A stretch of DNA of 64,000 bases, from assembly GCA_963747345.1 (NCBI GenBank), contig CAVVFA010000030.1, positions 265,910 through 329,909 on the forward strand, written 5' to 3'. The DNA comes from an uncultured Chloroflexia bacterium. GTDB taxonomy: Bacteria > Chloroflexota > Anaerolineae > Promineifilales > Promineifilaceae. The position numbers and the translations under genes were made by a program. This document shows positions 878 to 64,000 of this stretch, piece after piece. Each line of letters starts with the position of its first letter. Within the stretch, counting starts at the first letter, position 1. A model generated the notes under the pieces. It was given only the letters and a program-made list of their open reading frames with translations. It ran no database searches and was not told the DNA's origin.

Positions 878-904
878 TACCCAGATTTTATAGTGGAACA
901 GAAT

Positions 905-3152
905 CTAGCCGTGTTCTTTCAGTTTTGCCACGACTTTGTATGGCATGAGCGGAATCTCGTCGAACCAGATGCCCGTGGCATCATGCAGGGCGGCAATAAT
1001 GGCGGGAGCCAGCGGCAAGAAGGGCATTTCGGCCATGCCACGTGCCCCCCAGGGGCCAATCGGGTCTGGTATTTCCATGATGATGGATTCGACATGGGTG
1101 GGTATGTCTTTGATGCCAGGAATGAGGTATTGGCTCAAGTAAGGATTAAGAATGCGGCCATCTTTGAGCTGTAAATTTTCCATCAGCGCGTAGCCATGCG
1201 CTTGCACCACAGCCCCTTCAATCTGCCCTTCAACCAGCATGGGGTTGATGGCTTTGCCCACGTCATTGGCACAAACCACGCGGTCGATGCGGATGTGGCC
1301 GGTTTCCACATCTACCGTTAGCTCAACGGCTTCGGCAACATAACCATAGGCAAAGTTGGGCATACAAACGCCCGTTTCCGGGTCATAGGGTTGAGTCGGG
1401 AGGCGGAATATATTTTTCATGGGCGATGGCCGGGCGTTCCTCGTTTTGCCATTTCTCCAACGCTTTTTCGGCAGCCTGGCGAATGGAATTGCCTGCCATA
1501 AAGGTCATGCGCGAAGCCGAGACGGAGCCGGAATTGCCACTGCTGGCTGTGTCGGACATGTCGATTTCAACGAGAGCTACATCTACATTAACGGCCGTTG
1601 CTGCCATTTGTTTGAGCGCGGTGTGAGACCCTTGTCCCACCTCGGCGGCGGCGTGGTGCAAAATCACCTTCTCGATTTCTTTTCCGCCGTGTAACTCAAT
1701 AATCGCTTCACAATTCTCTGGAGCGCCAAAAGAAAAGCCAACATTCTTAAACGAACAGGCAATGCCTCGCCCTCTTTTTAACGATTGAGGATTAGAGACT
1801 AAAGATTGTACGCTGGAAAACTGTCCACCGTTCACTGTTAACTGTTCACTGTTAACTGATAACTGTTCACTGCCCCAGCCAACCCGTTCCGCACAAGTTT
1901 CAAGCACTTCGGTCAGACTGACGCCTTTGGGCATAGGCGTTTGCACGGTGAGCATACTGCCGTCTTTCAGGATATTTTTCAGACGTAGTTCAACGGGGTC
2001 GATGCCCAGCATTTCAGCCAGCTTGTTCATCTGGTTTTCGGCGGCAAATGCCCCTTGTGGGCCGCCAAATCCTCGAAAAGCACCGCCAGGCACGTTGTTG
2101 GTGGTGATGGCGTAGCTGTCGAGGTGGGCGTTGGGGATTTCGTAGGGGCCAGTGACCATGAGGTGGAAGTTGCCCAACACTTTGGTGCTGGTGTAGGCAT
2201 AAGCGCCACTATTCATGAACACTTCGGCGGAAACGGCCGTTATCATGCCATCATTTGTCGCGCCCCACTTTGTTTTAACCACCGCCTCGTGCCGTTTGTG
2301 ATGGCCGCGAATCGAATCTTCGCGGGACCAAACCATGCGCACAGGGCGGTCAATCCCTCGTTCATGCAAACGCATCGCCGCCAGCCCCAGCACAATCTGC
2401 AGTGACATATCCTCCCGTCCACCAAAGGCACCGCCAATGGCTGGATAGATGATGCGCACTTTCTCCAGCGGCAAACCCAAAGAGTGAGCTACTTGTTCCT
2501 GGTCTTCGTGTGTCCACTGCCCGCCAATTTCGATAGTAACGCGCCCTTCCTCATCCATATAACTGAGGCCCGCTTCTGGCTGGAGATACGCATGTTCCTG
2601 ATAAGGCAAGTGATATTCGCTTTCCACAACCACATCGGCTTCTGCCCAGCCAGCCTCCATATCTCCTTTGCGAATCTGATATTTCTTGAGGATATTGGTG
2701 CCATCAGCGCGGTTGACAATGACCTCATCCTTCATCGCCTCAAACATATCGGTGACGATGGGCAACTGTTCCCACTGAATCTGAATCTTGGCGCAGGCAA
2801 TAGCCGCCGCTTCTTCCGTTTCCGCCACGACGAGAGCCACATGGTCACATTCCCACAAGCTGATATCGCTGTAAGGTTTGGGGCTGCCGAGACCTACAAA
2901 AACGGGTTGATCTGGCACGATGAGGCCATATTCGTTGACAGGCACATCTTTTGCTGTGAAAACAGCAACAACACCAGGAACGGCTTCTGCGGCCGCTATA
3001 TCCATCGACAGCATACGGGCATGGGGTTGCTCGCTAAATAGCACTTTGCCATATAACAGGTTTTCTGGCGACCGGTCGCCAGAGTATTCAGCAAGCCCTG
3101 AAACTTTTCCTTTAGCATCCACACGCGGGATGGATTGGGTGTTAATTGTCAT
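905..3152 (-). pseudogene. xanthine dehydrogenase / aldehyde oxidase family molybdopterin-binding large subunit, split by apparent frameshift
   Basis: ORFs 1383-3152 (N-terminal hammerhead plus Mo-binding domains) and 905-1420 (C-terminal domain) overlap in different frames; 589+171 aa matches a normal ~760-aa subunit; frames join at the T5 run 1413-1417 (HEKYI / KNIFRLP). Confidence 0.7.
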
Positions 3153-3665: not shown

Positions 3666-5105
3666 TTAGGATGCCGCTTCAGCCGCTTTTTCCACAGCCT
3701 CGATAATCTTGTAATAACCGGTGCAACGACATAAATTGCCAGCAAAGGCTTGTTGAATTTGAGCCAATTCTGGGGAAGGATTTTCTTCAAGCAGCATGGC
3801 GCCTGACATTAAAAAGCCAGGAATACAGTAGCCGCATTGCACAGCGCCCGTGTCGATAAAGGCTTGTTGCAGTGGATGAAGTGTGCCATTAGTCGCCAAG
3901 CCTTCGATGGTGGTGATGGTGGCGTTATGGGCACGGGGCGCTGGAACCAGGCAAGACATGACGGCCATGCCATCTAAAATAATGGTGCAAGCGCCACATT
4001 CGCCTTCAGCACATCCTTCTTTGGTTCCGGTGAGATAGCCTTCATCGCGCAGCCAGTGGAGGAGTGTTTTGTGTATGCCGCCAACGGCCGTTATCTTTTT
4101 ACCATTCACCGTTGCTGTAATCACCCCATCTTTATCATGACTAGCTGTAAACTCAGAGCCAGTGGGGAATTCGCCATGAGTATCGCCCCAGAGCATGGTG
4201 GGGGCTTGCGGCCAAGTGGTCCGTTCTGCCCCGTCACGCAGGGCGGCGAGGGCGCGTTTTGTGAGTACGCCCACCATTTCCGTGCGATAGACGGCTGGCC
4301 CGCGCACATCGTCGATGGGGGTGGCGGTGGCTGCCGCCAAGCGGGCGGCTTCGGCGATGGTTTCATCGGTCAACTGTTTGCCGACGAGATACGATTCTGC
4401 TTTGGGGGTGGGAATGATGGTGGGCGCGACACAGCCCTGGGTGATGGCGGCTTGTTTCACCGTTTCGCCATCCGCCTCAAAATCGAGAATCAGCGCCAGG
4501 TGGATGACGGAGATGGCCTGGGCACGGCGCAAGCCGAGTTTCACAAACACACCGCGAGCGGTGGCCGGCATGGGGGCAAAGCTGATGTCTACCAGCATTT
4601 CATCTGGCTGCATGACGGTTTTGCGCACGCCTGTGTAAAACTCGGAAAGCGGCACTTTTCTCTCCCCGTTGACTGAGGCCAGGGTGACGGTTGCATTTAA
4701 CGCCCACAGCGGCGAGATGGTGTCGTTGGCGGGGCTGCCGGTGATGATGTTGCCCGCCACGGTGGCGCGGTTGCGCAGCTGCGGCGAGGCAACTTCTCAG
4801 CAAGCCTGAGCCAGCGGGAGTGCTTGTGCCACCAGCAGCGGCGACGCGATGACCTGATTATGGGTCACGAGCGGGCCGAGGTGGATGGTGCCATCGTCGT
4901 CTTGGCTAATTTTGTTGAGGCCAGGGAGACGGGTGATGTCGATGAGCATGTGGCAGTTGCGGCGTTGTCCCCGTTCCAGTTCCAGAAGCAGGTCTGTTCC
5001 ACCAGCTACAAGTCGAGCAAAACGGCCGTTTTTAGCCAGCAGTTTCAAGGTTTCATCAAGGGTGGTTGGTGTTTCGTAACGTGAAATGGTGTGTGGTTGG
5101 TTCAT
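3666..5105 (-). pseudogene. fused FAD-binding (CoxM/XdhB-like) plus [2Fe-2S] (CoxS/XdhA-like) Mo-hydroxylase subunit interrupted by in-frame TGA
   Basis: ORF 4797-5105 (GGTDL FAD_binding_5 N-domain) and ORF 3666-4760 are in the same frame, separated by TGA at 4797-4799; downstream codons give [17 protein letters not shown] (conserved FAD-domain motif), then the CO-dehydrogenase flavoprotein C-domain and CxxGxCGxC...CGYC...CRCTGY ferredoxin motifs. Confidence 0.65.
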
Positions 5106-5184: not shown

Positions 5185-5992
5185 TTAATTGCTCAGGCGT
5201 TTGCCTGTTCCTTGGCGGCGCAGCATGATGATTTCGGCCATGATGCTAATGGCAATTTCGTTGGGGTCTTCGGCGTTGAGTTCCAGGCCGATGGGAGAAT
5301 GAAAACGTGCCAAATCGGCTTCTGTGAGGCCATCTTCTTGCAGCAGGCGGATGGTTTCGGCCCAACGGCGGCGACTGCCCATCACGCCAATGTAGGGTGC
5401 GGGTGACTGGGCGAGGGTGGGCAGAATGTGGCGATCTACGGTTACATTGCGGGTGACGACGACGACGAATGTGTTGCCGCGTGATGGGGGCTGTTTTTTG
5501 CACGTCTTCAATGCTGCCGGGAATGTAGATGTCTGCTTCGGGGATGACGTCTGGCGAGACGAGTTCAGGGCGGTCGTCGCTGACGACGACGCGGTAGCCC
5601 ATCCATTTGGCGAGGCTGGCAACGGCTTGCCCCACATGGCCGCAGCCCAGCACCAAGACGGTGGCTGGCGGCTGATACCGTTCGCAATACACTTCTAGCT
5701 CGCCGCCGCATACGCCGGGGTCGCCGCGCTCGGCGTCGACGAGGGTGTAGGGGATGGTGCGCGGTTGTCCGTCTTGCAGCACTTCTTGGGCGATGGTGCG
5801 CACCCGTGCTTCTAATTCGCCGCCGCCGATTGTGCCACTGGAACGGCCGTTTTCGTAAAATATCATCTTGGCACCTGCATGGCGGGGGGTGGAGCCGCGT
5901 GTTTTGATGATGGTCGCCAGCACCACGGTTTCGCCAGCTTCTTGGGCGGCAAGGAGTTTAGCTACGATTTGGGGATTGGTATCGTTACTCAT
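5185..5992 (-). pseudogene. XdhC/CoxI-family Mo-cofactor insertion accessory protein, apparent frameshift
   Basis: ORF 5246-5992 has the XdhC_CoxI N-domain plus Rossmann start (LVLGCGHVGQA) then nonsense; ORF 5185-5637 in another frame carries the XdhC_C end (VVVTRNVTVD...YIGVMGSRRR...PIGLELNA...ISIMAEII); switch lies in the G5/T6 tract 5485-5500. Confidence 0.6.
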
Positions 5993-6143: not shown

Positions 6144-6423
6144 TCAGCCTGGAAGGTCATTTGGTGGTCTTGCACAGGCGGGGTGGTCGGGGTGACCTAA
6201 AATGACGGATTCATTTCCAGCTATGGTTTTGCCACATTGGCCTCTGGCGGCACATTCTTCACTGCACACCAGGGTGCCTTGTTGTTGGGGAGCGCCTTCT
6301 ACAACGGGCGCTTCATCGCCGCCCCGACTACATCCCAAGACAACTAGCAGAAAAAAAAGAGCCAGCCCAAATAGGCTGACTACTGATTTGTGTTGATGCG
6401 GATGAATGAGAAACGGCCGTTTC
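6144..6423 (-). CDS. small Cys-rich lipoprotein (GTG start, about 93 aa)
   Basis: GGAGG 7 nt upstream of GTG; signal MKRPFLIH...LFFLLVVLGCS with lipobox; mature part has 4 more Cys. Confidence 0.3.
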
Positions 6424-6903: not shown

Positions 6904-6990
6904 AAATTTTTAATCCAAAATATCAGATTTGATAGGTAATTTTATGTGGCGAGTGTATCAAAATAGAAGGGTATCATCAATGATTAAGCC

Positions 6991-8391: not shown

Positions 8392-8628
8392 TCTAACCTA
8401 TGGGAAACGTATCATCCGTTTATAGGGAGTGAATTTTTCATGAAGGCGTGTCCTGCTTCTTCCAAGAAATCCTTCCCCTATTTGTTACCTTGACGGTACC
8501 TTAACCCTTAAAATTCTTGTTAAGTCTTTCATTATATTAAATACGAATCTAAATTACAGCGGGAAAAGTGTACCAGTGGAGTCTCGTCATTTTTTTTGAA
8601 AGCGTCATCAATACAGCGTAACAAAAAC

Positions 8629-8670
8629 AGCAGCCCCGCAGTATCGAAAATTCTTGACACCGCGGGGCTA
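8629..8670 (-). terminator. putative terminator for the GT2/methyltransferase operon (minus strand)
   Basis: Stem agccccgc/gcggggct with a long loop, followed on the minus strand by GCTGTTTTTG. Confidence 0.35.
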
Positions 8671-8785
8671 CTTAAATGTTCTGTTTGTCTTGGTTGTGAG
8701 GTATCTTCTCAATATTCAGGTCTTTGCCGCGATCTATTGAGATGTCACGTTGTGAGGAGAGGATGTTAAAAACAAACGGCCGTTG

Positions 8786-9409: not shown

Positions 9410-10353
9410 ACTCGCCTGATGCTATATTCTTCGCCGGGATCATAGAGGTAGTAGCGCACCATTTCACCTAGCAAACCAATGGAGATTAATTGGAACCCCA
9501 ATATCATGCTGAGAATCCCGACAGTAAAAAGGGGTCTTGTGCCGATGGGGGGAATGTCGGCAGTGCCCATTAAGCGAAGAACCCATGAAATTGCAAAATA
9601 GATATTGATCAATACGCCGACCATAAAAACGGCTATTCCCGTCCAACCAAAGAGACGGAGTGGATTACGGGCGTAGCGCATCAAAAAGAGAACCATGATG
9701 AGATCCATAAAGCCACGAAAGGCTCGCCCTGTGCCATATTTTGATTCGCCTTTGTACCGTTCGTGATGGATAACGGGTTTTTCGACAACGCGGAATCCTT
9801 TCCATACGGCTAACAGGGGGACAAAACGGTGCAGATCGCTGTAGAGACGGATGCCTTTGATGACGCTGCGCCGATAGACTTTGAAGCCGCAGTTTAGGTC
9901 GTTGAATGTGGTTCCTGTTGATTTTGTAACGAGGTAGTTGAATAGTTTGGATGAGAGTTTCTTTTTTGACTGATCTTGTCGTTCGGTGCGCCAAGCGCTT
10001 ACGAGATCGTACCCTTTGTTTAGTTCGGCTATCATGGCTGGGATTTCGTCTGGGTCGTCTTGTAAATCGGCGTCCATGGTGATGAGGATGTCGCCTTCTG
10101 CTTGCTCGAAGCCAGCGACTAGCCCGGATGTTTTGCCGAAGTTGCGTCGAAATTCGATGATGCGGACGTGGGTTTTGTCTTGCTCGTATAGTTTTTCTAA
10201 CAGGGCCAGGGAATTATCGGTGCTGCCGTCATCAATGTAGACGATTTCGTAGGAAGGATCTAGCGGGATGAGAACGGCCGTTAATCGTTCATGCAATACC
10301 GCTAAATTTTCTTCTTCATTTAATAGTGGGATGATTACAGAGATTTCAGTCAT
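9400..10353 (-). CDS. GT2 polyprenol-phosphate glycosyltransferase (Dpm1/ArnC/GtrB-like) with C-terminal TM helices
   Basis: VIIPLLNEEENL...YIDDGSTD...DADLQDDP GT-A motifs; C-terminal hydrophobic segments. Confidence 0.7.
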   Translation of the reverse strand: MTEISVIIPLLNEEENLAVLHERLTAVLIPLDPSYEIVYIDDGSTDNSLALLEKLYEQDKTHVRIIEFRRNFGKTSGLVAGFEQAEGDILITMDADLQDDPDEIPAMIAELNKGYDLVSAWRTERQDQSKKKLSSKLFNYLVTKSTGTTFNDLNCGFKVYRRSVIKGIRLYSDLHRFVPLLAVWKGFRVVEKPVIHHERYKGESKYGTGRAFRGFMDLIMVLFLMRYARNPLRLFGWTGIAVFMVGVLINIYFAISWVLRLMGTADIPPIGTRPLFTVGILSMILGFQLISIGLLGEMVRYYLYDPGEEYSIRRVWQ

Positions 10354-10497
10354 AAGTAGGGTCGCAAAATACCAAGCAAGTTGTTAGATAAAGACGCTGG
10401 ATTCTACCATACGAATAAAGGGAAGCTAGGAAGAAGCGCGTTCACGCCCCCTCAAGTTTAGGAAGCGGAGGAGCGTGAACTTTTATTTGTAACGTGT

Positions 10498-11847: not shown

Positions 11848-11945
11848 GGTGTTCGTCCCTTGTTAGTACAAGCAATCTAGTTGCGCTACACCATACCGCA
11901 ACTGATCAACCAATCCCATGCAAAACCTGTTAATTTGAGAGGGAG

Positions 11946-11975
11946 ATTGTGGGAAAACGGCCGTTTTCCCACAAT
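11946..11975. repeat. 30-bp perfect palindrome ATTGTGGGAAAACGGCCGTTTTCCCACAAT centred on AACGGCCGTT
   Basis: Read directly; intergenic between GHL10 and gdhA. Confidence 0.7.
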
Positions 11976-12002
11976 AGACACCAGTTGCCAATTACCAAGA
12001 AA

Positions 12003-16761: not shown

Positions 16762-16808
16762 GGAGATTAGAGACTGGCATAATCTCCAATCTCTAATCTC
16801 CAATCTCA
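16762..16808. repeat. heptamer-based hairpin element (AGATTAG/AGATTGG family), locus A
   Basis: ggagattagaga-loop-tctctaatctccaatctc; immediately after the His-kinase stop. Confidence 0.55.
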
Positions 16809-16829: not shown

Positions 16830-19257
16830 TCATTCCTTATTTGTTTTTCTCCGGCGTAACCCCACCAACCCCGTCACAATAAATAACGGCATCAGCATGG
16901 CTGTCCCGCAGATACCACTGGTAAGGTCTGTGGCTTCTGGCTTTGCGCCAGGGGGTGATGGTTCGGGTTCGGTGTTGGCTGGTTGTGTCGCTGGGGGATT
17001 GGTAACGGCCGTTTCCCCCCCATCTCCCTCTTCCACCACTTCCACCTCAGTTGTCTCCGGCAGCACAATCGTCTCCGCGCCACCCGTTTCCACTATTTCA
17101 TACACCTGCCCTTCGTAGACCACCAGTACATTCTGTCCCAGCGCAAAGTATTGGCCTAGTTCTGGAGCAGCGGCGAGCAAATCGAAGTAGGTATCGGTGG
17201 CAAACCCGACCGGCTGCGGGTGTTTGTTTTTCAGGATCGAAGGTGGTGTCTGTGTAACGGCCGTTACGCCATACAAACGTCTTACTACCCACCAACTTAA
17301 CTGCCTCATCCACAGAGCCGTTCACATCCCCATCCGCCTTTTCCGCGCTCGGCAGCATCGTCGGTAAGGCCATCGGTGCTGCCGCTTCCGCCATATCGGC
17401 CGAGGCCGCTGCTTCATCCACAGCCTCGCTGCTCGGGGCAAAGAAACCACCCTCTTCCTCAGTCGGTTCCTCCGCGATTTCTTCCTCCACAATCACATTT
17501 CGCCCCGTTTGCGTGAAGATGTCATCTTCCTCAATAAGATAGCTGGTGTAGGGGGTGATAATGCCGTAGCGGATGCTCAAATTGACCACGCTCTGCACCA
17601 GTTCTGGATTATCCCCATGCAGCCGAATCTCACGCAGCAGATGGCCGATGGCCCGAGTCGCCCACAACCGCGGGATGAAATCATCGCCGCCGCGTGTGCG
17701 GAACAGATTGTCTTCATACACAAATTCCTGCGGCTCGCCGTTGACAATGCCTTTAAGCGTAATTGTCGCCGCCCCGCCGTCACGATACCGTCCCGTCAGC
17801 ACCAATTGATTGCCCGCAAACAGGTCTGGCAGCGTATCGGGGTACAGCTGCTCCACCACAATGCCGTCAAAATCCAGGCTGATGTCAGACAGCACCGGCG
17901 CACTGGCTTTGGCAAAGAAACTGCTCACTTCTTCGTCGATGGCCTCATGCGGGCGCACATAAGTCGTGGTGCCGCGATGGTTTTCCGCCAGCGCATCCAG
18001 CAAATTCGGGTCTACATCGTCGCCCACGCCAAAGACAAAAATGCGGGCATTACGGGGCATCGCCTGTGCCACAGCATCGAGCAGCAGCGGCGTCTCCACA
18101 ATGCCTTCGGTCGCCAGACCATCCGTTAAAAAGATGATGGTGGTGGGACGTTGGGGATCAAGCATAACGGCCGTTTCCAACAAAGCCTGACTAATATTTG
18201 TGCCACCAACCGCTTCCAAACTGTTGATGAAGCTGTCTACGCCACCCGGCTCGTCTGCCGAAACCAAATCTTGCTCATACAGGCGCACACCAGTCGAGAA
18301 CGGCACAATATTGAAGCGGTCTTCCGGGTTCAAATGCCCAACGACGTATCGCGCCGCCTCCTGTGCCTGCGCCATTTTCTCGCCTTCCATGCTGCCCGAG
18401 GTATCCATCACCACAATCACATCTTTGGCAATCACCTCGGCCACATCCACACTAGGCGCGACCAGCAGCGTGAAGAAACCATCCTGGTCTGCCTCTTTGT
18501 AACTGAGCAAATTCAGGCCAATATCTTCTGGCGAGACTGTGTAATACAGTTCAAAATCGGTGTCAGCGACCACATTGCTGTCTTCATACCCCGCCACTGC
18601 GTGAAAATCCCCGTCGCGGTTAATGGCAACGGCATGGCTGGGCGAATAAATGGCGCGAATCGCTTCGTCAGAAAAAATTTCCACGCGAATGCTCTGGTTT
18701 TCCAGCGGCGTGTTGGTATACAAGTCAGTTGATTGCGGATAGACGTAGTGGATGACGCCATTGTCAGCCGGCAGCACCTGCGTATATTCGATTTCCACGC
18801 GTCGCTCATCACGCGGCGGAATGGGGAAGACGTTGGCCTGGATGGCTTGCGTGCCCACGTATTCCAGCAGCGCCGGATCACGCAGTTGGCGCACGATTTC
18901 GTCGTAGATTTGACGCGCTTCCTCTTTCTCCAGGATTTTGGCTTCGATGGGCTGCCCATCCACCCACATGGTGAGTTGGTTCACCGCCGCCCCTTCAGGC
19001 AGCGGAAAGAGGTAAGTGCCTTCCAGCATCCAGTCGTTGTCGTTGACAAACAGCTGCTCGATGTGGGTGGTGGCAATCTGGTTGTCGATGGTGGTATTGA
19101 CGCGCTGGTATTCGATGGTCAAGCCGTTCATGTCCCACACAGGCGGCTCGATGGGCAGTGGTTCTGGAATGATGGGGTCGTCTTGGGCAACGGCCGTTCC
19201 CACCACACTCATCAAAATTACAAATAAAGTCAGGAATAACGCAATCGTTTTTCTCAT
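16830..19257 (-). pseudogene. secreted VIT plus vWA domain protein with C-terminal TM/basic tail; apparent frameshift near the 3-prime end
   Basis: Signal peptide; VIT region; vWA MIDAS motif (DTSGSM); the 719-aa ORF turns to nonsense after DPEKQTP while ORF 16830-17309 in another frame continues (GFATDTYFDLL... ending GLVGLRRRKTNKE); T5 run at 17227-17231. Confidence 0.65.
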
Positions 19258-36880: not shown

Positions 36881-37793
36881 TTATTCACTACGCCTAGTCA
36901 ATACCACCAGCCCCGCGAATAACAGGCCAATCCCCAACCAGGCCAGTGGCTCCAATGATTCGCCTACCACGAAAATGCCCAGGAGAGCGGCGGTTAACGG
37001 TTCGGCTAAGGTGAGGGAAACGGCCGTTGCTGAACTCACCGTCTTCAACCCAATTGTAAACAGCAAATAAGCACAAGCCAACGTGATCACGCCCAAATGG
37101 AGCGATACCACAAACCCGCTTGGCTCCGTTAGCCAGCTCATATCCAATACAAAGCAGAGCGGCAGCATCAACAGCGCCCCCAGGCCAAAAACGACTCCCG
37201 CAACAACGGTAGACGGCCGTTCTCCGACCAAGAATTTACTGGCAATGGTATACACCGCATACGCCGCGCCTGCGCCCACCGCCAACAGCATCCCGCCCAC
37301 ATCGACCTGAATGCTTTGGCCGCCGCCGATGAGCAGCGTGCAGCCCACAATCGCCAAACCTGTCGGCAATCGCCCACTGCCGCCCCGGCCACGTCCGAAA
37401 CACGATCCAGGTCAGCAATCCGGCCATAATCGGCGAACTACCGATGCCCACAATCGTGCCCATCGCCACGCCTGCTCGCGCCACACCCGCAAAAAACAAA
37501 AGTTGATAGCCCACCATCCCCAATACAGCCAAAACCAACGGCACAATCGGCCATCGACCGCCGTGCCGCCAGCCGCCACGCGCAAACATCAAGCCTGCCA
37601 ACAGCGCCCCGCCCAGCACCATCCGCACCGTTCCCACCGCCAGCGGCGATGTGCCGGCTGGCGCAAAGGTTTGGGCCGTGCCAGTGGTCCCCCACAGTGT
37701 TGCGGCTAATAAAACAAACCAGGCGCCTGAGATTGTGCGGGATTTTGCGGCCATTAAAAGACTGAGATTGAAGATTGGAGATTGGGAGACCAA
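36881..37793 (-). pseudogene. DMT-superfamily (EamA-like) transporter, apparent frameshift between the two EamA domains; its last 46 codons are tail copy 3 (36881-37028)
   Basis: ORF 37236-37793 (EamA domain 1) degenerates after IMAGLLTWIVF; ORF 36881-37369 in another frame carries EamA domain 2; switch at 37370-37400 (C4/G-rich). Confidence 0.6.
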
Positions 37794-37820
37794 TCTCTAA
37801 TCTCCAATCTCTAATCTCTC
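37763..37820. repeat. heptamer-based hairpin element, locus B
   Basis: gagattgaagattggagattgg-gaga-ccaatctctaatctccaatctctaatctc then T5; overlaps the hydrolase stop. Confidence 0.55.
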
Positions 37821-38636
37821 TTTTTCTAGCCAGTTTTGAATGGTTTCAGCAACCAGTAACGGCCGTTCCATGGGCAGCATGTGGCCTAAATCCGCCATCT
37901 CTACAAAAGTGGCTGACGGTTGTAGTTCTTGCCACAACTGCCAGGAATCGGGGAACAAGGTGTCTGATTTCGTAGCACGAATCGCCAGGGTGGGCTGTGT
38001 CACCTGCGGAATGCGCTCCCACACGGAAAGTGGGAGTCGGGCATAAACACGGGCTTCCCACTCACGTGGATAGGTTAAGACAAACTCGCCGTTCTCTTCA
38101 TGTATGCCATTGTTAACATAATCCCACAACACGGCGTCGGACCAGCGCTCAAAAACAGACTTGACTCTGAAATGGTCAAACGCCGCCTGCCGCGACTGCC
38201 AACGATTGCGCCGGTTCAAGGCTCGCAGCACAAAGGGCTGTTCTGCCGCTTTGTCAGGATGGGCGGCGGCCAATTGCAAAATCTGCGGCGGCAAAAACAC
38301 CGGTTCGATCAGCACGATGGCGCGGAACAAATCAGGGCGCTGCACAGCGGCATACATCGTCGCCACCGCCCCCAGCGAATGTCCCATGCCGATGACATCA
38401 CGCAAGCCTTCCTGGTCGAAGAACTGAATCAAATCGTCAGTGAAATCCTGCCAACTGGTTAGTTCATCGGGATTGGCTGTGGGGCCATAACGGCCGTTGT
38501 TTCATCGCCAGCACGTGATAATTTGCCAGAAATGGCTCCATAAATTGCTGATAACAGGCAGGTGGATACGCGTTGGCGTGGGCAAAATGGAGCAGCGAAC
38601 CGCTGCCCCCGAAGTCTACAAAAGGAATGGAAAACA
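37797..38636 (-). pseudogene. alpha/beta-hydrolase fold protein (about 280 aa) with a frameshift inside an AACGGCCGTT palindrome
   Basis: N-part in frame a (MFSIPFVDFGGSGSLLHFAHANAYPPACYQQFMEPFLANYHVLAMKQR), C-part in frame b (GRYGPTANPDELTSWQDFTDDLIQFFDQEGLRDVIGMGHSLGA...); frames switch at 38489-38498. Confidence 0.55.
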
Positions 38637-38696
38637 TGGGGAATTGTTAATTGTAAATTGCCAATTGTCAATGAAAAAATGTATATCTGTTAACTT

Positions 38697-46905: not shown

Positions 46906-47983
46906 CTAGAAGTCTAGCGTATCGTCATCATCCATAGCTTGGCCGTCTTGTTGAAGCTGTTCAACGCGTCCTTCAATATCGGCCGCATAATCACCTTCTT
47001 TACGCCAGACATGGAACTTAATAGACAAGCGGTCGAAATAACTTTCAGGCGGTTGTTCAGCTTCGTTGCCATACTCAATCTCAGTGACAATGGCATTCAA
47101 GATAAGAGAAACGGTTTCCAAAACAACAGTTTCCCCTTCACGAGCCAAAATTTGCTCGGTACCCTTCGTCGCCAGCTTTGCTTTGAGCCCTTCATCATGG
47201 AAAGCATGTTCGCTCATCAGAATTTTGGTTCGGGTGCGGATGTCATTTTTATCGAACAGCCACACTTCAAATGCGGTGACATTTTTCGGTGTATCTGAGC
47301 CAAGCGATTCTGCAATGGCAATACCACAGTCGCCCAAGAACTCTTGCCCTTCATTTTCAATGGGGAACGAGTATTCAAACCGATCATCCCCACGAACGTA
47401 CGTGCTGTCTACACTAGCAATGGGTGTGGTTTCTGCACCGTGGTCTGTATCTGCTACCGGCGCCACATCAGGCATGGCCTGGGATGACTCAGATGATGTC
47501 AAGGCATTTCGGCGGTTAAGCACAAAAATGATGGCACCTATCAAAACAAGCAGCAGCAGCCCCAAGAGGAATATAGGAACCAGGCTGTTGCTTTCGCCTT
47601 CTTCCGCAGCAGTTGCTTCCTCACCTGTTGTAACGGGAGCCGCCCCAATATCAGCGCAACCTACGCCATTAACAACAGCTGCGGATGCATTTAAGCGTGC
47701 CTGTTCTGCCGGATCGGTTGAACGCGAAGCCAGATCACATGTTGCCTCAACGCCAGCCCATCCACCTAAAGCTTCTTGCACTTTTTGCGTATTACCATCA
47801 AAGGAATACGCATCGGCAACTGCCCTTACGTAACATCTTGATATGGTTGTGCGAATGCATTGGGGGTAGCCTCATCCCACTGAACAGGGAACAACCCCAA
47901 CCCAACACAACCAGACCAATCACCAGGCCAAGGACAAAAACGACTAACAATGAAATTGCGGGATTTTTGCGAACAAAATCCAT
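46906..47983 (-). pseudogene. two-TM membrane protein with an acidic C-terminal cytoplasmic domain; apparent frameshift in the N-terminal region
   Basis: ORF 47798-47983 (MDFVRKNPAISLLVVFVLGLVIGLVVLGW...) and ORF 46906-47781 in another frame; the 291-aa frame stays protein-like for about 30 codons upstream of its GTG; switch about 47815-47850. Confidence 0.4.
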
Positions 47984-48279
47984 GTGTCACCTACCTTACT
48001 AGCTCATGAATGAGACGACATAGTGACATCCCCTCTGCATTTTGTAGTTTACCATAACAGAATCCCCAGTCAAGTTATGTTTAATTGTTTCCACGAGTGA
48101 ATGGTTTCCTTCTCTCTTTTGCCTGTGGTATACTTTTTCCGATTCGTAGCGATACAGGCGTCTTGGGAGAGACTCAGAGTTTAAATGTATGCCATGCATA
48201 ATTACTCGAGGTGAATTTCTTGGTCTCTGGTTAGCCGCTTCAATTATAATAGGTAGGTATCCCCATTCCATCAGGAGAT

Positions 48280-56559: not shown

Positions 56560-56617
56560 GAGATTGGAGATTAGAGATTGGAACGTGAAGCAATCTCCAA
56601 TCTCTAATCTCCAATCT
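56560..56617. repeat. heptamer-based hairpin element, locus C (21-bp perfect stem AGATTGGAGATTAGAGATTGG)
   Basis: A-run, stem, 10-nt loop, stem, then a T-rich stretch. Confidence 0.6.
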
Positions 56618-56622
56618 TATTT

Positions 56623-57931
56623 ATGAAAGTTTACCTCCACAGCATCGGCTGCCGCCTGAACCAGAGCGAAATCGAGACCATGGCCCGCCAGCTTCTTGCC
56701 GCCGGACATGAGATTGTCACAGAAACGGCCGTTGCCGATAAAGTCATCATCAACACCTGCGCCGTCACCGCCGAAGCCGCCAGCGACGCCCGCAGTCATG
56801 ACGCGGCGCATCCACCGCCAAAACGACGCCGCCGAAATTCTGCTCACTGGCTGTTACGCCACCATCGCCCCCGACGAACTGGGTAAAGTGGCCGGAGCCG
56901 GACGCATCGTCCTCAACAAAGACAAAGCTAACCTCGTGCCCCTGCTCGACCCCAAAGCCCGCATCGACCTGCCCCTGTTTGACCAGGAACCCGTCATGCG
57001 CGAATTTTTGGCAGGCACGGCGGGCAATACCCGCGCCTTCATCAAAGTGCAGGATGGCTGCAACAACAAATGCACCTTCTGCGTCACCACGATTGCGCGA
57101 GGCGAAGGCCAAAGCCGCCACTTGGGCGACATCATCGCCGAAATTCAGGCGCTGACCACCGCTGGCTACCAAGAAGCGGTGCTTTCAGGCGTGCATATGG
57201 GCAGTTATGGCTACGATTTTGGCAACCGAGCTGGACTGATGGAACTGGTGCAGGCCATCCTCGACCACACCGACATCCCCCGCTTGCGCCTCTCCTCGTT
57301 GGAACCGTGGGACATTGCGCCCGGCTTCTTTACCCTGTGGCAAAACCCGCGCTTGCTGCCCCATCTGCACATGCCCCTGCAATCTGGTTGTGACCGCACG
57401 TTGCGGCGCATGGCGCGGCGTACCAATCAGGTCAGCTTCCGTGAACTGGCTGACGCCGCCCGCGCCCACATCCCCGACCTCAACCTGAGCAGCGACATCA
57501 TCGTCGGTTTCCCTGGCGAAACGGAAGATGAGTTCCAAACCAGTCTTGATTATGTGCGTGAGATTGGTTTTTCGCGGCTGCACGTCTTCACCTACAGCCA
57601 GCGCCCCGGTACGGCCGCCGCCACCATGCCCGACCAGATTCCAGGCCCCGTCAAAAAAGAGCGCGTGCAGCGCATGATTGCCCTGGGCAACGAGATGAGC
57701 CTCGCCTTCCACCAGCAGTACGAAGGCAAAACGATGAATGTGCTCTGGGAAAGCAGTGTCGGTGCGAACAGCCACGGCCTGCGCTGGGTGGGCTACACGG
57801 ACAACTACATCCGCGTCAACGGACACGGCCCTGCTGATTTGTTTAATAGGGTGACGACTGTGAGGTTGGAAAACGCGAGGGTTGATGGCATGGATGGCGT
57901 GATTTTAGGTAAGGGCCAGGCAATCGTGTAA
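56623..57931 (+). pseudogene. MiaB/RimO-family radical-SAM methylthiotransferase, apparent frameshift after the N-terminal MTTase domain
   Basis: ORF 56623-56886 (MKVYLHSIGCRLNQSE...IINTCAVTAEAASDARS then nonsense); ORF 56696-57931 in another frame (...ILLTGCYA..., CNNKCTFC radical-SAM motif, TRAM end); switch at 56775-56800. Confidence 0.7.
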
Positions 57932-58930: not shown

Positions 58931-60373
58931 ATGGCAAAACAAGACAAACTCACCCCGCGCAGCGAGGATTTCAACGAATGGTACAACACCGTCGTGCAAA
59001 AAGCGGATATGGCCGACTATGGGCCAGTGCGTGGCACGATGATCGTCAAGCCCTATGGTTGGGCTTTGTGGGAAAATATACAAGGCGCGTTAGACAGCCG
59101 CTTTAAAGCCACAGGTGTGCAAAACGCCGGCTTCCCCATGTTTATCCCCATGAGCTTCTTGCAAAAAGAAGCGGCCCATGTGGAAGGCTTTGCCCCTGAA
59201 CTCGCCGTCGTCACCATTGGCGGTGGGCAGGAACTGGCAGAACCTCTCGTCGTCCGTCCCACCTCGGAGACGATGATTGGACACGCCTACTCCAACTGGA
59301 TTCAGAGCTACCGTGATTTGCCGATGCTGCTCAATTTGTGGAACAGTGTTGTCCGCTGGGAACTGCGCACCAAGCTCTTCCTGCGCACCCTGGAATTCTA
59401 CTGGCAAGAAGGCCACACCGCCCACGCCACCGCCGAAGAAGCGGATGAACGCACCCGCCTGATGCTGGATGTGTACACCGACTTTGCTGTCAACGAAGCG
59501 GCCGTGCCTGTGATTCCTGGTATTAAATCAGATATGGAACGGTTTGCTGGGGCCAACGAAACCATGACCATTGAAGCGATGATGGGCGATGGCAAAGCGC
59601 TGCAATCGGGTACTTCTCACAATTTGGGCGAAAATTTTGCCAAAGCGTTCGATATTCAATACCTCGATAAGAACAACGAATTGCAAAATGCGTGGACAAC
59701 TTCCTGGGGTTTGAGTACCCGCTTCATCGGCGCCATTATCATGACGCATGGTGACGACCACGGCTTGATTTTGCCGCCCCGTTTGGCTCCTTATCAGACA
59801 GTGATTGTGCCGATTTACAAGAATGATGAAGAAAAAGAAGCCGTTCTCGAAGCGACCAATCGCATTCAGCAAGAACTCATTGCCGCTCATGTTCGTGTTA
59901 AAGTCGATGACCGCGAAAACTTGACCCCTGGCTTCAAGTTCAACGACTGGGAAATGCGCGGCGTACCAACCCGCATTGAAATCGGCCCGCGTGATGTGGA
60001 GAAGAATTCGGTGGCCTTAGCCCGCCGCGATATTCCAGGACGGGATGGCAAGCAGTTTGTGTCGCAGGATGGCATTGCGCAAACGGTGGCTGATTTGCTG
60101 GTGACGGTGCAGCAAGCACTCCTGGATCGGGCGACCAAATTCCGTGACGACAATACGCATGACGTGGACAACTATGATGATTTCAAAACGGCCGTTTCCA
60201 CAGGATTTGCTCGCGTGTGGTGGGCAGGAGACAGCGCCGAAGAGACCCAGGTCAAAGAAGAAACCAAAGCCACCATCCGCTGCTTCCCCATCGACCAGCC
60301 CGGCGGCACAGGCACCTGTTTCTTCACCGGCAAACCAGCTGATAGAATCGCCATCTTTGGCCGCGCTTATTAA
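58931..60373 (+). CDS. proS: prolyl-tRNA synthetase, archaeal/eukaryal-type (no INS editing domain, about 480 aa)
   Basis: Class II motifs; length and N-terminus typical of the arch/euk-like ProRS found in some bacteria. Confidence 0.8.
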   Translation: MAKQDKLTPRSEDFNEWYNTVVQKADMADYGPVRGTMIVKPYGWALWENIQGALDSRFKATGVQNAGFPMFIPMSFLQKEAAHVEGFAPELAVVTIGGGQELAEPLVVRPTSETMIGHAYSNWIQSYRDLPMLLNLWNSVVRWELRTKLFLRTLEFYWQEGHTAHATAEEADERTRLMLDVYTDFAVNEAAVPVIPGIKSDMERFAGANETMTIEAMMGDGKALQSGTSHNLGENFAKAFDIQYLDKNNELQNAWTTSWGLSTRFIGAIIMTHGDDHGLILPPRLAPYQTVIVPIYKNDEEKEAVLEATNRIQQELIAAHVRVKVDDRENLTPGFKFNDWEMRGVPTRIEIGPRDVEKNSVALARRDIPGRDGKQFVSQDGIAQTVADLLVTVQQALLDRATKFRDDNTHDVDNYDDFKTAVSTGFARVWWAGDSAEETQVKEETKATIRCFPIDQPGGTGTCFFTGKPADRIAIFGRAY

Positions 60374-60379: not shown

Positions 60380-60435
60380 AGATTAGAGATTGGAGATTTG
60401 GGATCGATAATCTCCAATCTCTAATCTCTAATCTC
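60380..60435. repeat. heptamer-based hairpin element, locus D
   Basis: agattagagattggagat-loop-atctccaatctctaatct. Confidence 0.6.
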
Positions 60436-60445: not shown

Positions 60446-62177
60446 ATGAAACTTTCACGAGCATTTGGCAAAACATTACGAGAAGCACCGGCCGACGCCG
60501 AACTAGCCAGCCATCAACTCCTCATTCGAGCAAATTACGTACGGCCGATTGGGGCGGGTATTTACGTATTTATGCCATTGGGCTACCGTGTCATCCGCAA
60601 AATTTGGGAGATTATGGCGCAGGAGATGGATGCCATCGACGGGCAGGAAATGTGGATGCCCAACCTGAATCCGGCGGCGCTGTGGCAGGCAACCGGGCGC
60701 TGGGACACGGTAGATGTGCTCATGAAAGTGAAAGCGGGCGGCGGGCGTGAATATGCCCTGTCAGCTACTCACGAAGAAGTAGTGACGGAACTGTGCCTGC
60801 GCGACATCGAAAGTTACCGTGATTTGCCGCGCATGATCTACCACATCAGCAAGAAGTTCCGGGATGAACCGCGTGCGCGTGGCGGCTTGCTGCGCCTGCG
60901 TGAGTTCATCATGAAAGACGCCTACACCCTCGACCCCGACGAAGAATCCTTCGACGCCTATTATCCCCAGATGCTCCAGGCGTATTACAATATTTTTGAA
61001 CGGGTTGGCACACCCGCTGTCGCCGTGCAAGCCGATACCGGCAGTATGGGCGGCAAAACCTCGCACGAGTTTGTTGTGCCGCACGAAGAAGGCGAAGATA
61101 CCTACATCGCCTGTACCGAATGCGATTATGCGGCTAATGTGGAAGCGGCCGAATTCGTGCGTGAAGGTGACAAACCGGCTGAGTTGGCCGAGTTGGTCAA
61201 AGTCGCCACGCCGGATTGCAAGACAATTGCGGATGTGGCGGCGTTTGTGGGTGTCGAGACGAACCAGACGGTGAAGGCTGTCTTTTTCTGGCGGTGGCCG
61301 TTAGGAGAAAGTGAGGAGAAACGGCCGTTTCGTATTCATACTTGTGCGCGGCGATTTAGATATCAACGAAATCAAACTCATCAATGCGTTGGGCGGCGGG
61401 CAGCTTCGTGCCGCCACCGAGGAAGAAATTCGGGCGGCGGGAGCAGAACCGGGCTACGCCTCAGCCATTGGCTTGGACATCGCCCAAGATTTTGAGCAGC
61501 CAGGCGTGTTTGTCATGGCCGACACCTCCATTGAGGCAGGTGGCAACTTCGTCGTGGGCGCAAATGATGCTGGCTATCATTTCACCGGAGCCAACTACCC
61601 GCGCGACTTCGCCGTCAGCCAAATTGCTGACATTGCCCAGGCGGATACGGGACACAAATGTCCCCACTGCGGCGCGGCAATCGAAGCACGGCGCTGCACG
61701 GAAGCGGGACACTGTTTCAAACTAGGCACCCGTTACTCTGACCCGACTGGTGCTACTTTCCTCGATGAAAATGGCAAGCCACAACCCATCTTCATGGGCT
61801 CATACGGCATTGGGCTAGACCGGCTGATGGCGACGATTGTGGAACAACATCATGACGAACAGGGCATTGTCTGGCCGGATGCGGTCGCGCCGTATCAAGT
61901 TCATTTGCTCCATCTGGGCAAGGGCGACGACGTGAAAGAAGCGGCGGATAACCTGTATGCGGAACTACGCCAGGCTGGTTTGGAAGTGCTGTACGATGAC
62001 CGCGAAGCCAGCGCGGGTGTGAAGTTTAACGATGCGGATTTGATGGGGCTGCCTTGGCGCGTGACGGTTGGTGGACGTGGACTGGCGCAAGGTACGGTCG
62101 AAGTGAAGCGCCGTAATCAGGAAGATCGTGAATCCGTGCCGTTGGCCGAGTTAATTTCTTTTCTCAAATCAGCGTAG
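60446..62177 (+). pseudogene. proS: prolyl-tRNA synthetase, bacterial-type (with INS region), apparent frameshift inside an AACGGCCGTT palindrome
   Basis: ORF 60446-61495 (MKLSRAFGKTLREAPADAE...) becomes nonsense after KAVFFW; ORF 61311-62177 in another frame continues (...GRFVFILVRGDLDINEIK... anticodon-binding end); switch at 61317-61330. Confidence 0.7.
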
Positions 62178-62355: not shown

Positions 62356-64000
62356 ATGGATAGCCCACGACTCTCACTTTTGCTTATATCTGCTGATGCC
62401 CAACTCGCTGACGAGTGGGTGGCGATGCTGCAACAGTCTGTGCCGATGGTTGAGGTGGTGTTTGTGGTGGAAACGGCCGTTTCCCTTCCCCAAGCTCTAG
62501 AAAAACTCAACCACGCCCCCTGATGTGGTTTTGCTGTATAGTGATGACGAGTTGGAGATAACGGCCGTTGTTGACCAGTTCCCCCACGCCCCAATTATTC
62601 TCATTACAGATAACGACGACACCCAAACTGAGTCAATGGCACAGACCTCGGTGGTAACTGATGTTTTGCCACGAGCGCAACTCACCGCGCCGCTGTTTGT
62701 GCGTGTGTTGTACCATGCGTATCAAGTGCGCCACTATGCCACTATCCGAGACAAAGCGCGTGAGCATCGTCAGATTTCTGAGGCGCTATTGCGGGCGGGT
62801 GTGGAGATGAATGCCATCCTGAATTACGATGAGATGCTGGATAGCATATTAAAATATGCAGCTTATTTCTTCCCCTACGATATGGCAACCATCATGCTCG
62901 TAGAGGAAGACTTGGTGCGCATTGAACGGCTGCGGACGGCTGATGTAGACAAGTCGGTGCAATGGGCGATGGAAAAAGCTGCGAATACGATATTCTCCCT
63001 TGCCGAGACTCGGAATTTGAGAGAAGTTGTGGAAAACGGCCGTTATCTTATCATTCCAAACATCGACAACTACCCAGATTGGATCCATATTCGATCCGAT
63101 TTTTACATTCGTTCATGGATAGGTGTTCCTTTAATTGTAAAGGGGCAGATCATGGGCATCTTAACGCTAGACAGCCTGCGGCCAGATGTCTATCAAGATG
63201 ATGATGGACAGATGTTGGCGGCATTTGCGGCCCAGGCGGCATTGGCTTTGCATAATGCCCATATCCACCAAAACCGTCAGCGAGAGGTTTCAGAATTATC
63301 AGCGCTTCATGCCATTGCCCAGACCAGCACAGAAGCCATGACGGTGGATGAACTGCTTACCCGCTGTACGCAGATTGTCGCTGAGAAACTATACCCGGAC
63401 AGCTTTGGCTTTATTCTCGTCAACGATGATGGTGTTACTATGAGTGCCCATCATGCGTTTCATAACCGTCTGCCAGTCTTGCATCCTAAAAAACTGCCGA
63501 TTGGCACGGGCGTGGTCGGCCAAGTTATTCAAATGGGGCAAATGCGCCATGTTTCTGATATTCGAACGGATACAAAATATGCGGATATTGTGGCGCATAC
63601 ACATTCAGAGTTATGTGTGCCATTGCAGGTGCGGGGGCAAATAATTGGCGCTATTAATGCGGAAAGCATTTTGTTTGGTGCCTTTACCGAAGCAGATGAA
63701 CGGTTCCTGGTGGCCTTGTCGCAGCAATTAGCGACTGGGATTGAACGAATTCAACTGCTGGAAGCGGAACGTAAAAATCGAGAAGAGGCAGAAAAATTAC
63801 GTGATGCAGCCGCTTTTTTGACGACATCATTAGATTTGGAGCAAGTTTTTAACAATATTTTGAGCAGGTTGGAGGAAGTTGTACCGCATGATAGCGCTTC
63901 TGTGATGTTGCGGCATGGAGAAGAATTGGTGATTGTCGCCGCACGCGGTTTTGCAGAGCCAGGCAGGCTTATAGGCCAGAGCTTTCAGGCTAATTTGCTT
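62356..64000 (+). CDS. multi-GAF sensor protein with N-terminal receiver-like domain (3-prime partial); apparent frameshift at C5 62516-62520
   Basis: Hand translation: MDSPRLSLLLISADAQ...LNHAP(P)DVVLLYSDDEL... then at least two GAF domains; open to the window end; missed by the ORF track because there is no stop. Confidence 0.5.

What the first reader, a model, noticed from the sequence alone, without database searches (positions are those of the whole stretch)
38489..38498. Frameshifts located exactly inside AACGGCCGTT palindromes (alpha/beta hydrolase and bacterial-type proS)
In the alpha/beta-hydrolase gene the reading frame changes within ATAACGGCCGTTGT (38489-38498). In bacterial-type proS it changes within GAGAAACGGCCGTTTCG (61320-61329). 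In both cases protein-like sequence continues in the other frame immediately across the motif. With about one motif per kb, two of eight frameshifts landing inside the 10-mer is unlikely by chance. There are two explanations. One is systematic basecalling indels at a methylated motif, typical of nanopore data at R-M sites. The other is that the process creating the palindromes (insertion or conversion) is itself mutagenic. Either would be informative about the motif's biology.
Basis: partly seen in the sequence, partly recalled or inferred. Interest (0 to 1): 0.6.

Follow-up and report, generated by a model that had tools for sequence, protein, structure and literature searches.

The report
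Assembly frameshifts near, not inside, palindromes
Two broken genes were reported to be frameshifted exactly inside copies of a very abundant 10-base palindrome, but one extra base lies 13 bases outside its palindrome and the other sits at the edge of its palindrome, and both belong to at least 11 single-base errors scattered through this draft genome piece, so the finding is most likely an ordinary assembly artefact.

Summary
Both palindromes and both frameshifts exist, but "exactly inside the palindrome" does not hold.

- **Hydrolase:** DNA alignment with a close relative (L001) shows one extra base at 38475/38476. That is 13-14 nt outside an intact, in-frame, conserved palindrome.
- **proS:** the extra base lies at 61318-61321, at the 5' edge of the palindrome. 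It is most parsimoniously G61318, 2 nt outside.
- **All lesions:** a systematic survey of about 50 kb of coding sequence found 11 frameshifts (nine +1 insertions, two -1 deletions) and one in-frame TGA. Each sits in a gene that is otherwise intact and 90-98% identical to intact orthologues.
- **Distances to the nearest motif:** 2, 13, 25, 37, 64, 192, 235, 336, 362, 1024 and 1082 nt.
- **Chance:** one of 11 within 2 nt gives p=0.13. Overall proximity gives p≈0.02. That falls to p=0.24 without the two lesions that prompted the idea, and to p=0.18 when intergenic extra bases are added.
- **Motif copies:** 60 of 61 carry no lesion, and all 8 shared with relative L004 are read identically.
- **Origin of the motifs:** they arise by substitution in frame, not by insertion.

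Best reading: insertion-biased consensus errors of a draft metagenome-assembled genome (MAG, 410-kb contig), falling near motifs largely by chance. Interest is low. The palindrome family itself is the interesting object.

The parts
38489..38498 (.). AACGGCCGTT palindrome inside the alpha/beta-hydrolase gene. It is intact, in frame (CAA CGG CCG TTA = Q-R-P-L on the minus strand) and conserved in relative L001.
38475..38476 (-). Actual hydrolase frameshift: one extra C (minus strand CAG[C]CAAT; GG on the + strand where L001 has a single G). It lies 13-14 nt outside the palindrome. Gene span 37797-38637 (-).
   Evidence: DNA alignment with L001; orthologue protein alignment WPHSNPDEL
61320..61329 (.). 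AACGGCCGTT palindrome in bacterial-type proS. It encodes N-G-R-(F) in the downstream frame, and the site is also a motif in L003.
61318..61321 (+). proS frameshift: one extra base in GAGGA[G]AAAC. Either G61318 was inserted into the ancestral GAA AAC, or one A of the run 61319-61321 was. With it the perfect palindrome is 14 bp (GAAACGGCCGTTTC). Gene span 60446-62177 (+).
62506..62506 (+). +1 insertion (GAAAAA[C]TCA) in the response-regulator/GAF gene 62356->64000, 25 nt from the palindrome at 62472-62481.
   Evidence: tblastn and DNA alignment with L002
56796..56797 (+). +1 insertion (AGT[C]ATG, or AG[T]CATG) in mtaB 56623-57931, 64 nt from the palindrome at 56724-56733.
17217..17220 (-). +1 insertion in ACA CC[C/G] CAG of the VIT/VWA gene 16830-19257 (-), about 37 nt from the palindrome at 17256-17265. 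That palindrome is itself in frame (R-N-G-R-Y).
37364..37364 (-). +1 insertion (minus strand GCC[G]ACA) in the EamA transporter gene 36881-37793 (-), 336 nt from any motif.
6177..6177 (-). +1 insertion in a 141-aa hypothetical gene (about 6000-6425, minus strand). Deleting the base restores the full ORF of the L004 orthologue. 235 nt from a motif.
5480..5480 (-). +1 insertion in xdhC 5185-5992 (-), 362 nt from a motif.
1398..1400 (-). +1 insertion (CC->CCC on the minus strand) in the xanthine-dehydrogenase Mo-binding subunit gene 905-3152 (-), 192 nt from a motif.
47835..47895 (-). Two separate 1-nt deletions (about 47894/5 and 47835/6) in a membrane-protein gene 46906-47986 (-), more than 1 kb from any motif.
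4797..4799 (-). In-frame TGA in the CO/xanthine dehydrogenase flavoprotein-[2Fe-2S] gene 3666-5105 (-), where L004 has TTA (Leu). 222 nt from a motif.

Best explanation
The two frameshifts are ordinary single-base consensus errors of a draft metagenome-assembled genome. The window's proteins are recorded on one 410,197-bp NCBI/ENA contig of an Anaerolineae (Ardenticatenaceae/Promineifilaceae-like) MAG.

The window carries at least 11 such indels and one nonsense substitution, about one per 5 kb, mostly +1 insertions of G or C. The palindrome AACGGCCGTT occurs about once per kb, so some lesions fall near a copy by chance. One falls at the edge of a copy (proS), one 13 nt away (hydrolase), and the rest 25 to more than 1000 nt away.

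**Shown here**
- The exact or near-exact positions of the lesions.
- Their absence from close relatives.
- The integrity of the palindromes.
- The lack of a robust statistical association with the motif.

**Inferred**
- That the lesions are sequencing or assembly errors rather than real mutations. No reads are available.
- That the assembly is long-read based.
For: 1. **Lesions mapped against relatives.**
   - Hydrolase 38475/6 and EamA 37364, against L001.
   - proS 61318-21, against L002/L003 and 40 orthologues.
   - GAF 62506, against L002.
   - XdhMo 1398, XdhC 5480 and hyp141 6177, against L004, which is 91.6% nt identical over 10 kb.
   - MtaB 56797 and VIT 17217-20.
   - Two deletions near 47.9 kb and a TGA at 4797-99.
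2. **Each broken gene has one lesion** (one gene has two). It is otherwise 90-98% identical to intact orthologues on both sides of the break. This is not what decaying pseudogenes look like.
3. **Directional bias.** Nine of 11 frameshifts are +1. One-base indels against L004 run 8 window-extra to 1 window-missing.
4. **The motif is read cleanly.** There are 61 perfect copies against 9 one-mismatch variants, and 8 of 8 copies shared with L004 are identical.
5. **Monte Carlo tests.** One of 11 within 2 nt gives p=0.13. The 9 lesions not used to raise the hypothesis give p=0.24. Sixteen lesions including intergenic ones give p=0.18.
6. **Published background.** Long-read assemblies are known to carry frameshifts and premature stops that pseudogenise genes (PMC12007338 abstract; PMC11649196, section on coding sequences).
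Against: - No reads, quality values or platform information are available, so "error" is inferred and not shown.
- The proximity trend for the 11 coding frameshifts is nominally significant (sum-log p=0.018; 5 of 11 within 64 nt, p=0.007).
- Divergence between the window and L004 is somewhat higher 16-60 nt from motifs (11.7% against 8.4%, permutation p≈0.02).
- The proS insertion lengthens the perfect palindrome from 12 bp (ancestral GAA form) or 10 bp (ancestral GAG form) to 14 bp.
- A frameshift in pgk of an unrelated nanopore MAG (L071) lies about 47 nt from a motif copy.
- Most insertions are not in homopolymers, which is less typical of nanopore consensus errors (my knowledge).
Confidence: 0.7

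Rival explanations
1. Motif-linked sequencing artefact. AACGGCCGTT (core CGGCCG/GGCC) is methylated, or forms hairpins, and perturbs single-molecule basecalling or consensus in its neighbourhood. Insertion errors would then be locally enriched around motif copies.
For: - The proS lesion is at the motif edge.
- Five of 11 coding frameshifts lie within 64 nt of a motif (p=0.007), and the sum-log test gives p=0.018.
- A frameshift lies 47 nt from a motif in the nanopore MAG L071.
- Methylated motifs are a recognised source of systematic nanopore error (my knowledge). PMC11649196 discusses platform-specific systematic errors that are removed by adding PCR (unmethylated) reads.
Against: - Modified-base effects act within a few nucleotides (my knowledge), yet four of the five "near" lesions are 13-64 nt away.
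- 60 of 61 copies carry no lesion, and 8 of 8 copies shared with L004 are read identically.
- There are few degraded copies.
- The signal disappears when the two hypothesis-generating lesions are left out (p=0.24), or when intergenic extra bases are added (p=0.18).
- Methylation of the motif is untested.
Confidence: 0.15
2. Real, motif-associated mutagenesis. Either the palindromes are sites of nicking and repair, or they drive quasi-palindrome (template-switch) synthesis. Both would generate +1 insertions and substitutions in a patch of tens of nucleotides around them.
For: - The proS insertion extends the perfect palindrome to 14 bp (GAAACGGCCGTTTC). This is the signature expected of quasi-palindrome correction (Ripley model, my knowledge).
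- There is a proximity trend.
- Divergence against L004 is higher 16-60 nt from motifs.
- The flanks of motif copies are slightly more self-complementary than composition predicts (p≈0.015).
Against: - It would require about a fifth of the surveyed genes to be freshly inactivated while remaining 90-98% identical to intact orthologues.
- Six of 11 lesions are 190 to more than 1000 nt from any motif.
- The insertions as a group do not stabilise local hairpins compared with control insertions.
- The motifs themselves arise by in-frame substitution, not insertion.
- A one-base extension of a palindrome by a random inserted base has about a 1 in 4 chance.
Confidence: 0.07
3. Real pseudogenisation unrelated to the motif. 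The genome would be in decay, or from a mutator lineage, and the lesions would be true mutations.
For: - Lesion types are mixed (insertions, deletions, one nonsense codon).
- proS could be dispensable, because an archaeal-type ProRS gene lies next to it.
Against: - There is a single lesion per gene, with no further degradation.
- The strong +1 bias is opposite to the usual bacterial deletion bias (my knowledge).
- Relatives keep all these genes intact and syntenic.
- The lesion density is about 1 per 5 kb.
Confidence: 0.05

Closest known systems
Gene-fragmenting indel errors in long-read or draft assemblies (for example as addressed by Kastor, PMC12007338; also Watson & Warr 2019, my knowledge)
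   Same: Single-base indels and an occasional premature stop split genes that are otherwise intact and highly conserved. Density is about 1 per 5 kb, and orthologues in other assemblies are intact.
   Different: The platform and the reads are unknown here. Most lesions are +1 insertions outside homopolymers, whereas nanopore consensus errors are typically homopolymer deletions (my knowledge).
Methylation-motif-associated nanopore basecalling errors (Dam/Dcm-type systematic errors)
   Same: A short palindromic motif that could be a methyltransferase target (core CGGCCG/GGCC), and one indel right at its edge (proS).
   Different: Those errors recur at many copies of the motif and lie within it. 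Here 60 of 61 copies are clean, and the other lesions are 13 to more than 1000 nt away.
HIP1 (GCGATCGC), the highly iterated palindrome of cyanobacteria (PMC4390886, PMC5861425)
   Same: A palindromic oligomer over-represented by orders of magnitude (61 copies against 0.04 expected), at about 1 per kb. It is embedded in coding sequence through codon choice, conserved at orthologous sites, and shared by related genomes.
   Different: The sequence is different (AACGGCCGTT, core ACGGCCGT) and so is the phylum (Chloroflexota/Anaerolineae). A link to orphan methyltransferases was not tested. This concerns the setting of the finding, not the frameshifts themselves.
Quasi-palindrome templated frameshift mutagenesis (Ripley model; my knowledge)
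   Same: The proS insertion makes an imperfect palindrome more perfect (12 -> 14 bp).
   Different: Only one lesion fits. The other insertions do not improve local complementarity. Whether the change is a real mutation is unknown.

Membership tests
Assembly/consensus indel artefact | The lesion is absent from orthologous DNA of close relatives assembled independently | tested here: met
   L001, L002, L003, L004, L005 and L009 all carry intact genes at the 11 frameshift sites and at the TGA site. These are relatives, not the same strain.
Assembly/consensus indel artefact | The broken genes are otherwise undegraded, and lesions are frequent and directionally biased | tested here: met
   Identity is 90-98% aa on both sides of each break. 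There are 11 frameshifts and 1 stop in about 50 kb surveyed. Nine of 11 are +1, and one-base indels against L004 run 8:1.
Assembly/consensus indel artefact | The lesions are not supported by accurate reads, or are removed by polishing | not testable with these tools
   No reads are available. The window's own contig could not be retrieved, and only its length and sources are known.
Methylation-motif-linked basecalling error | Errors lie within a few nucleotides of the modified base | tested here: not met
   Only proS (distance 0-2 nt) qualifies. The hydrolase lesion is 13-14 nt away and the others 25-1082 nt.
Methylation-motif-linked basecalling error | Errors recur at many copies of the motif | tested here: not met
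   There are 61 perfect copies against 9 one-mismatch variants. All 8 copies shared with L004 are identical. 46 copies lie in surveyed coding sequence, and one has an adjacent lesion.
Methylation-motif-linked basecalling error | The motif is actually methylated in this organism | not testable with these tools
   This needs raw nanopore signal or PacBio kinetics. No DNA methyltransferase gene was recognised among the window ORFs scanned with Pfam, which did not cover every ORF.
Quasi-palindrome templated frameshift | The mutation increases complementarity of an imperfect inverted repeat | tested here: inconclusive
   proS fits, with the perfect palindrome reaching 14 bp. For the set of 9 insertions, the change in folding energy is no different from control insertions.
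Highly iterated palindrome (HIP-like) family, as the setting of the finding | A palindromic oligomer over-represented by orders of magnitude, in coding and non-coding DNA, and conserved among relatives | tested here: met
   61 copies against 0.04 expected. About 1 per kb in L002-L004 and L020, fading with phylogenetic distance. In-frame use is biased to x-T-A-V.
Highly iterated palindrome (HIP-like) family, as the setting of the finding | A cognate (orphan) DNA methyltransferase recognising the core | not tested
   Outside the 64-kb window, and no genome-wide search was possible.

The most novel reading that the evidence does not exclude
The neighbourhood (up to about 60 nt) of AACGGCCGTT copies is truly mutation-prone in this lineage. 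One possible cause is motif-directed nicking followed by error-prone patch repair or template switching. That would produce both the excess of +1 insertions near motifs and the higher substitution divergence 16-60 nt from them. The process that maintains the palindromes would then have a measurable mutagenic footprint.
Probability: 0.05. Interest if true: 0.7.

Novelty: not a real feature. Interest (0 to 1): 0.15.

Why it matters
As stated, the finding would have tied a hyper-abundant palindrome to either a methylation-dependent sequencing artefact or a mutagenic process. Either would have been a handle on the motif's biology. The evidence instead shows generic consensus errors.

The practical value is a warning. 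This MAG carries about one gene-breaking error per 5 kb, including in proS, mtaB and the xdh genes. Its pseudogene calls should not be interpreted biologically, and the frameshifts say little about the palindrome.

The palindrome family itself is a HIP1-like element in Anaerolineae, with a strong Thr-Ala-Val reading-phase bias and conservation across relatives. It remains the object that merits study.

Tried and rejected
1. **Retrieving the window's own contig or an independent assembly of the same strain.** Exact-protein look-ups failed. Cluster look-up showed only one 410,197-bp NCBI/ENA contig. The GTDB representative scan found only relatives, at most 96% aa identical.
2. **Metagenome scan with the 1013-aa protein.** It gave only relatives at about 56% identity. 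These were useful solely for the VIT junction, through L009.
3. **A chimeric five-junction protein query.** It returned only MtaB and XdhMo homologues. XdhC and the flavoprotein were then resolved through the syntenic contig L004.
4. **Candidate frameshifts rejected.**
   - Near 6500, the response regulator ends at a true stop.
   - Near 40724, there are two separate small ORFs.
   - Gene boundaries at 9400, 28750, 39800, 52530 and 54010 are ordinary overlaps.
5. **Hairpin or quasi-palindrome stabilisation by the insertions.** There is no general effect.
6. **Extended palindrome around the motif.** Only a weak excess of flank complementarity was found.
7. **Palindromes created by insertion.** Rejected, because motif-less orthologous sites differ by substitutions only.
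8. **Elhai 2015 (PMC4390886).** It holds no occurrence of the search terms 'Chloroflex', 'CGGCCG', 'very short patch' or 'Vsr'.

Full report
**What is at the coordinates**

AACGGCCGTT occurs at 38489-38498 and at 61320-61329. It is one of 61 perfect copies in the 64-kb window, against 0.04 expected from shuffles. The flanks are weakly symmetric: G-rich on the 5' side and C-rich on the 3' side.

- The alpha/beta hydrolase is split into 38464-38637 and 37797-38432 on the minus strand.
- Bacterial-type proS is split into 60446-61495 and 61311-62177 on the plus strand.
- Pfam domains continue from one frame into the other.

The organism is an Anaerolineae MAG close to Ardenticatenaceae/Promineifilaceae, judging by the names attached to homologues. 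The window's own truncated products are on record from a single 410,197-bp contig held by NCBI and ENA.

**Where the hydrolase frame changes**

In the upstream frame the palindrome encodes Q-R-P-L. RPLW is invariant in 50 homologues. The same frame continues through W-P-H-S, exactly as in the closest orthologues (…RPLWPHSNPDEL…).

A JGI contig (L001) is nearly identical over this stretch. Across more than 60 nt it differs by one thing only: the window has CAG**C**CAAT where L001 has CAGCAAT. The extra base is therefore at + strand 38475/38476, 13-14 nt outside the palindrome. The palindrome itself is intact, in frame and conserved.

**Where the proS frame changes**

Forty orthologues read …(S/E)-E-E-N-G-R-F-V-F-I-L-V-R-G-D.
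- In the window, S-E-E is in the upstream frame and N-G-R-F (AAC GGC CGT TTC, the palindrome) is in the downstream frame.
- The sequence GAG GAG A AAC GGC therefore has one base too many.
- Relatives L002 and L003 both have GAG GAA AAC. The most parsimonious event is thus insertion of G61318, 2 nt before the 10-mer.
- The alternative is an extra A in the run 61319-61321, which overlaps the first two bases of the 10-mer.

The frameshift is at the edge of the palindrome and not demonstrably inside it. With the extra base the perfect palindrome grows to 14 bp (GAAACGGCCGTTTC).

**All lesions in the window**

I surveyed the window in three ways:
- a codon-usage frame plot;
- Pfam scans of adjacent ORFs;
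- tblastn of every ORF from syntenic relatives against the window. The relatives were L001, L002/L003, L004 (91.6% nt identity over window 1-10,400), L005/L006, L009, L021 and L043.

About 50 kb of coding sequence could be checked this way. The lesions found are listed below.

| Gene | Lesion | Position (+ strand) | Distance to nearest motif (nt) |
|---|---|---|---|
| xdh Mo-binding subunit | +1 insertion | 1398-1400 | 192 |
| xdhC | +1 insertion | 5480 | 362 |
| 141-aa hypothetical gene | +1 insertion | 6177 | 235 |
| VIT/VWA gene | +1 insertion | 17217-20 | about 37 |
| EamA transporter | +1 insertion | 37364 | 336 |
| alpha/beta hydrolase | +1 insertion | 38475/6 | 13-14 |
| mtaB | +1 insertion | 56796/7 | 64 |
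| proS | +1 insertion | 61318-21 | 0-2 |
| response-regulator/GAF gene | +1 insertion | 62506 | 25 |
| membrane-protein gene | two -1 deletions | about 47894/5 and 47835/6 | >1000 |
| CO/xanthine dehydrogenase flavoprotein | in-frame TGA (L004 has TTA, Leu) | 4797-4799 | 222 |

Each gene is otherwise intact and 90-98% identical to its orthologues on both sides of the break. One-base indels between the window and L004 run 8 window-extra to 1 window-missing.

**Is the association with the motif more than chance?**

The motif occurs once per 1049 nt. All figures below come from Monte Carlo placement of lesions over the surveyed coding bases.
- One of 11 within 2 nt: p=0.13.
- Two of 11 within 14 nt: p=0.055.
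- Five of 11 within 64 nt: p=0.007.
- Sum of log distances: p=0.018.

These are post-hoc tests on a hypothesis that two of the lesions generated.
- The nine other lesions give p=0.24.
- Adding five intergenic window-extra bases seen against L004 (all more than 460 nt from a motif) gives p=0.18.

I conclude there is no robust association and certainly no targeting of the 10-mer.

Seen from the motif side:
- 46 copies lie in surveyed coding sequence, and only one has an adjacent lesion;
- all 8 copies shared with L004 are read identically;
- there are only 9 one-mismatch variants against 61 perfect copies.

The motif is therefore not a site of systematic miscalling.

**Does the palindrome-making process cause indels?**

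The motifs sit in frame within conserved codons. Orthologous sites that lack the motif differ by substitution only.
- L021 hydrolase: ATCGGCCGTT, H-R-P-L.
- L002 proS: AGTGGCCGTT, S-G-R.

The motifs are thus not insertions. The nine insertions do not, as a group, stabilise local hairpins compared with control insertions at neighbouring positions. A general quasi-palindrome (template-switch) origin is therefore unsupported. Only the proS case fits, and a one-pair extension by a random base has about a 1 in 4 chance.

**Best explanation**

The lesions are generic, insertion-biased consensus errors of a draft MAG. A long-read origin is inferred, not shown. Supporting points:
- high lesion density;
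- one lesion per otherwise pristine gene;
- the +1 bias;
- intact, syntenic orthologues in several independent assemblies.

Long-read assemblies are known to carry such gene-fragmenting errors (PMC12007338; PMC11649196).

**Residual observations that keep the rivals alive**
- The nominal proximity trend.
- Higher window-L004 divergence 16-60 nt from motifs (11.7% against 8.4%, permutation p≈0.02).
- A pgk frameshift about 47 nt from a motif in a nanopore MAG (L071). Two pgk frameshifts in another nanopore MAG (L042) lie far from motifs.

One untested way to reconcile these observations is that motifs sit preferentially in variable protein segments, where strain mixtures make consensus calling harder.

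**Verdict**

The palindrome family itself, HIP1-like but in Chloroflexota, deserves separate attention.

Noticed in passing
whole window (61 sites, e.g. 1590, 11956, 38489, 61320); loci L002-L004, L020-L049: AACGGCCGTT behaves like a HIP1-type highly iterated palindrome in an Anaerolineae lineage. It occurs 61 times against 0.04 expected, with only 9 one-mismatch variants. It is present at about 1 per kb in the closest relatives and fades with phylogenetic distance, although the 8-mer core ACGGCCGT stays frequent in more distant Ardenticatenaceae/Promineifilaceae MAGs. Orthologous sites are conserved (8 of 8 against L004).
   Followed up: partly
motif copies inside ORFs, window-wide: There is a strong reading-phase bias. 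Of 57 copies in long ORFs, 39 are read as x-Thr-Ala-Val (A ACG GCC GTT), 13 as Asn-Gly-Arg and 5 as (K/E)-Arg-Pro (the longest ORF was used as a proxy for the gene).
   Followed up: partly
window 16781-16807, 37764-37818, 56560-56618, 60386-60435: Arrays of the heptad GAGATT[G/A] occur in inverted orientation in intergenic spacers (REP-like hairpins, possibly terminators). There are 17 matches against 0.1 expected.
   Followed up: no
window 58931-60373 and 60446-62177: An archaeal/eukaryote-type ProRS (480 aa, with the ProRS-C_1 domain) and a bacterial-type ProRS (576 aa once corrected) lie side by side. The pair is conserved in L002 and L003.
   Followed up: partly
window 4797-4799 (-): An in-frame TGA lies in the FAD-binding/[2Fe-2S] subunit of the xanthine/CO dehydrogenase operon, where L004 has TTA (Leu). 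The same operon carries two more lesions (xdhC at 5480, the Mo subunit at 1398), so three of its genes are broken within 5 kb.
   Followed up: yes
window 200-10040 versus L004: Substitution divergence is higher 16-60 nt from motif copies (11.7%) than overall (8.4%), with permutation p≈0.02 from 9 motifs. The motif bases themselves are conserved (4.4%).
   Followed up: partly
window 1-10400 versus L004: One-base indels are asymmetric, with 8 extra bases in the window against 1 missing. This includes 5 in intergenic DNA (865, 877, 3193, 3609, 3620), which suggests the true error rate may be nearer 1 per 1-2 kb.
   Followed up: partly
L071:10515-10609; L042:6760-7175: The phosphoglycerate kinase orthologues in two long-read MAGs are also frameshifted. 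MFD09964.bin.1.113 (L071) has one frameshift about 47 nt from a motif copy. Ca. Leptovillus affinis AalE_BATAC.251 (L042) has two, both far from motifs.
   Followed up: partly
window 11941-11980: The intergenic motif copy at 11956 is extended by 10 complementary bases on each side (gggagattgtgggaaAACGGCCGTTttcccacaat), giving a 30-bp perfect palindrome. It is the only long extension among the 61 copies.
   Followed up: no
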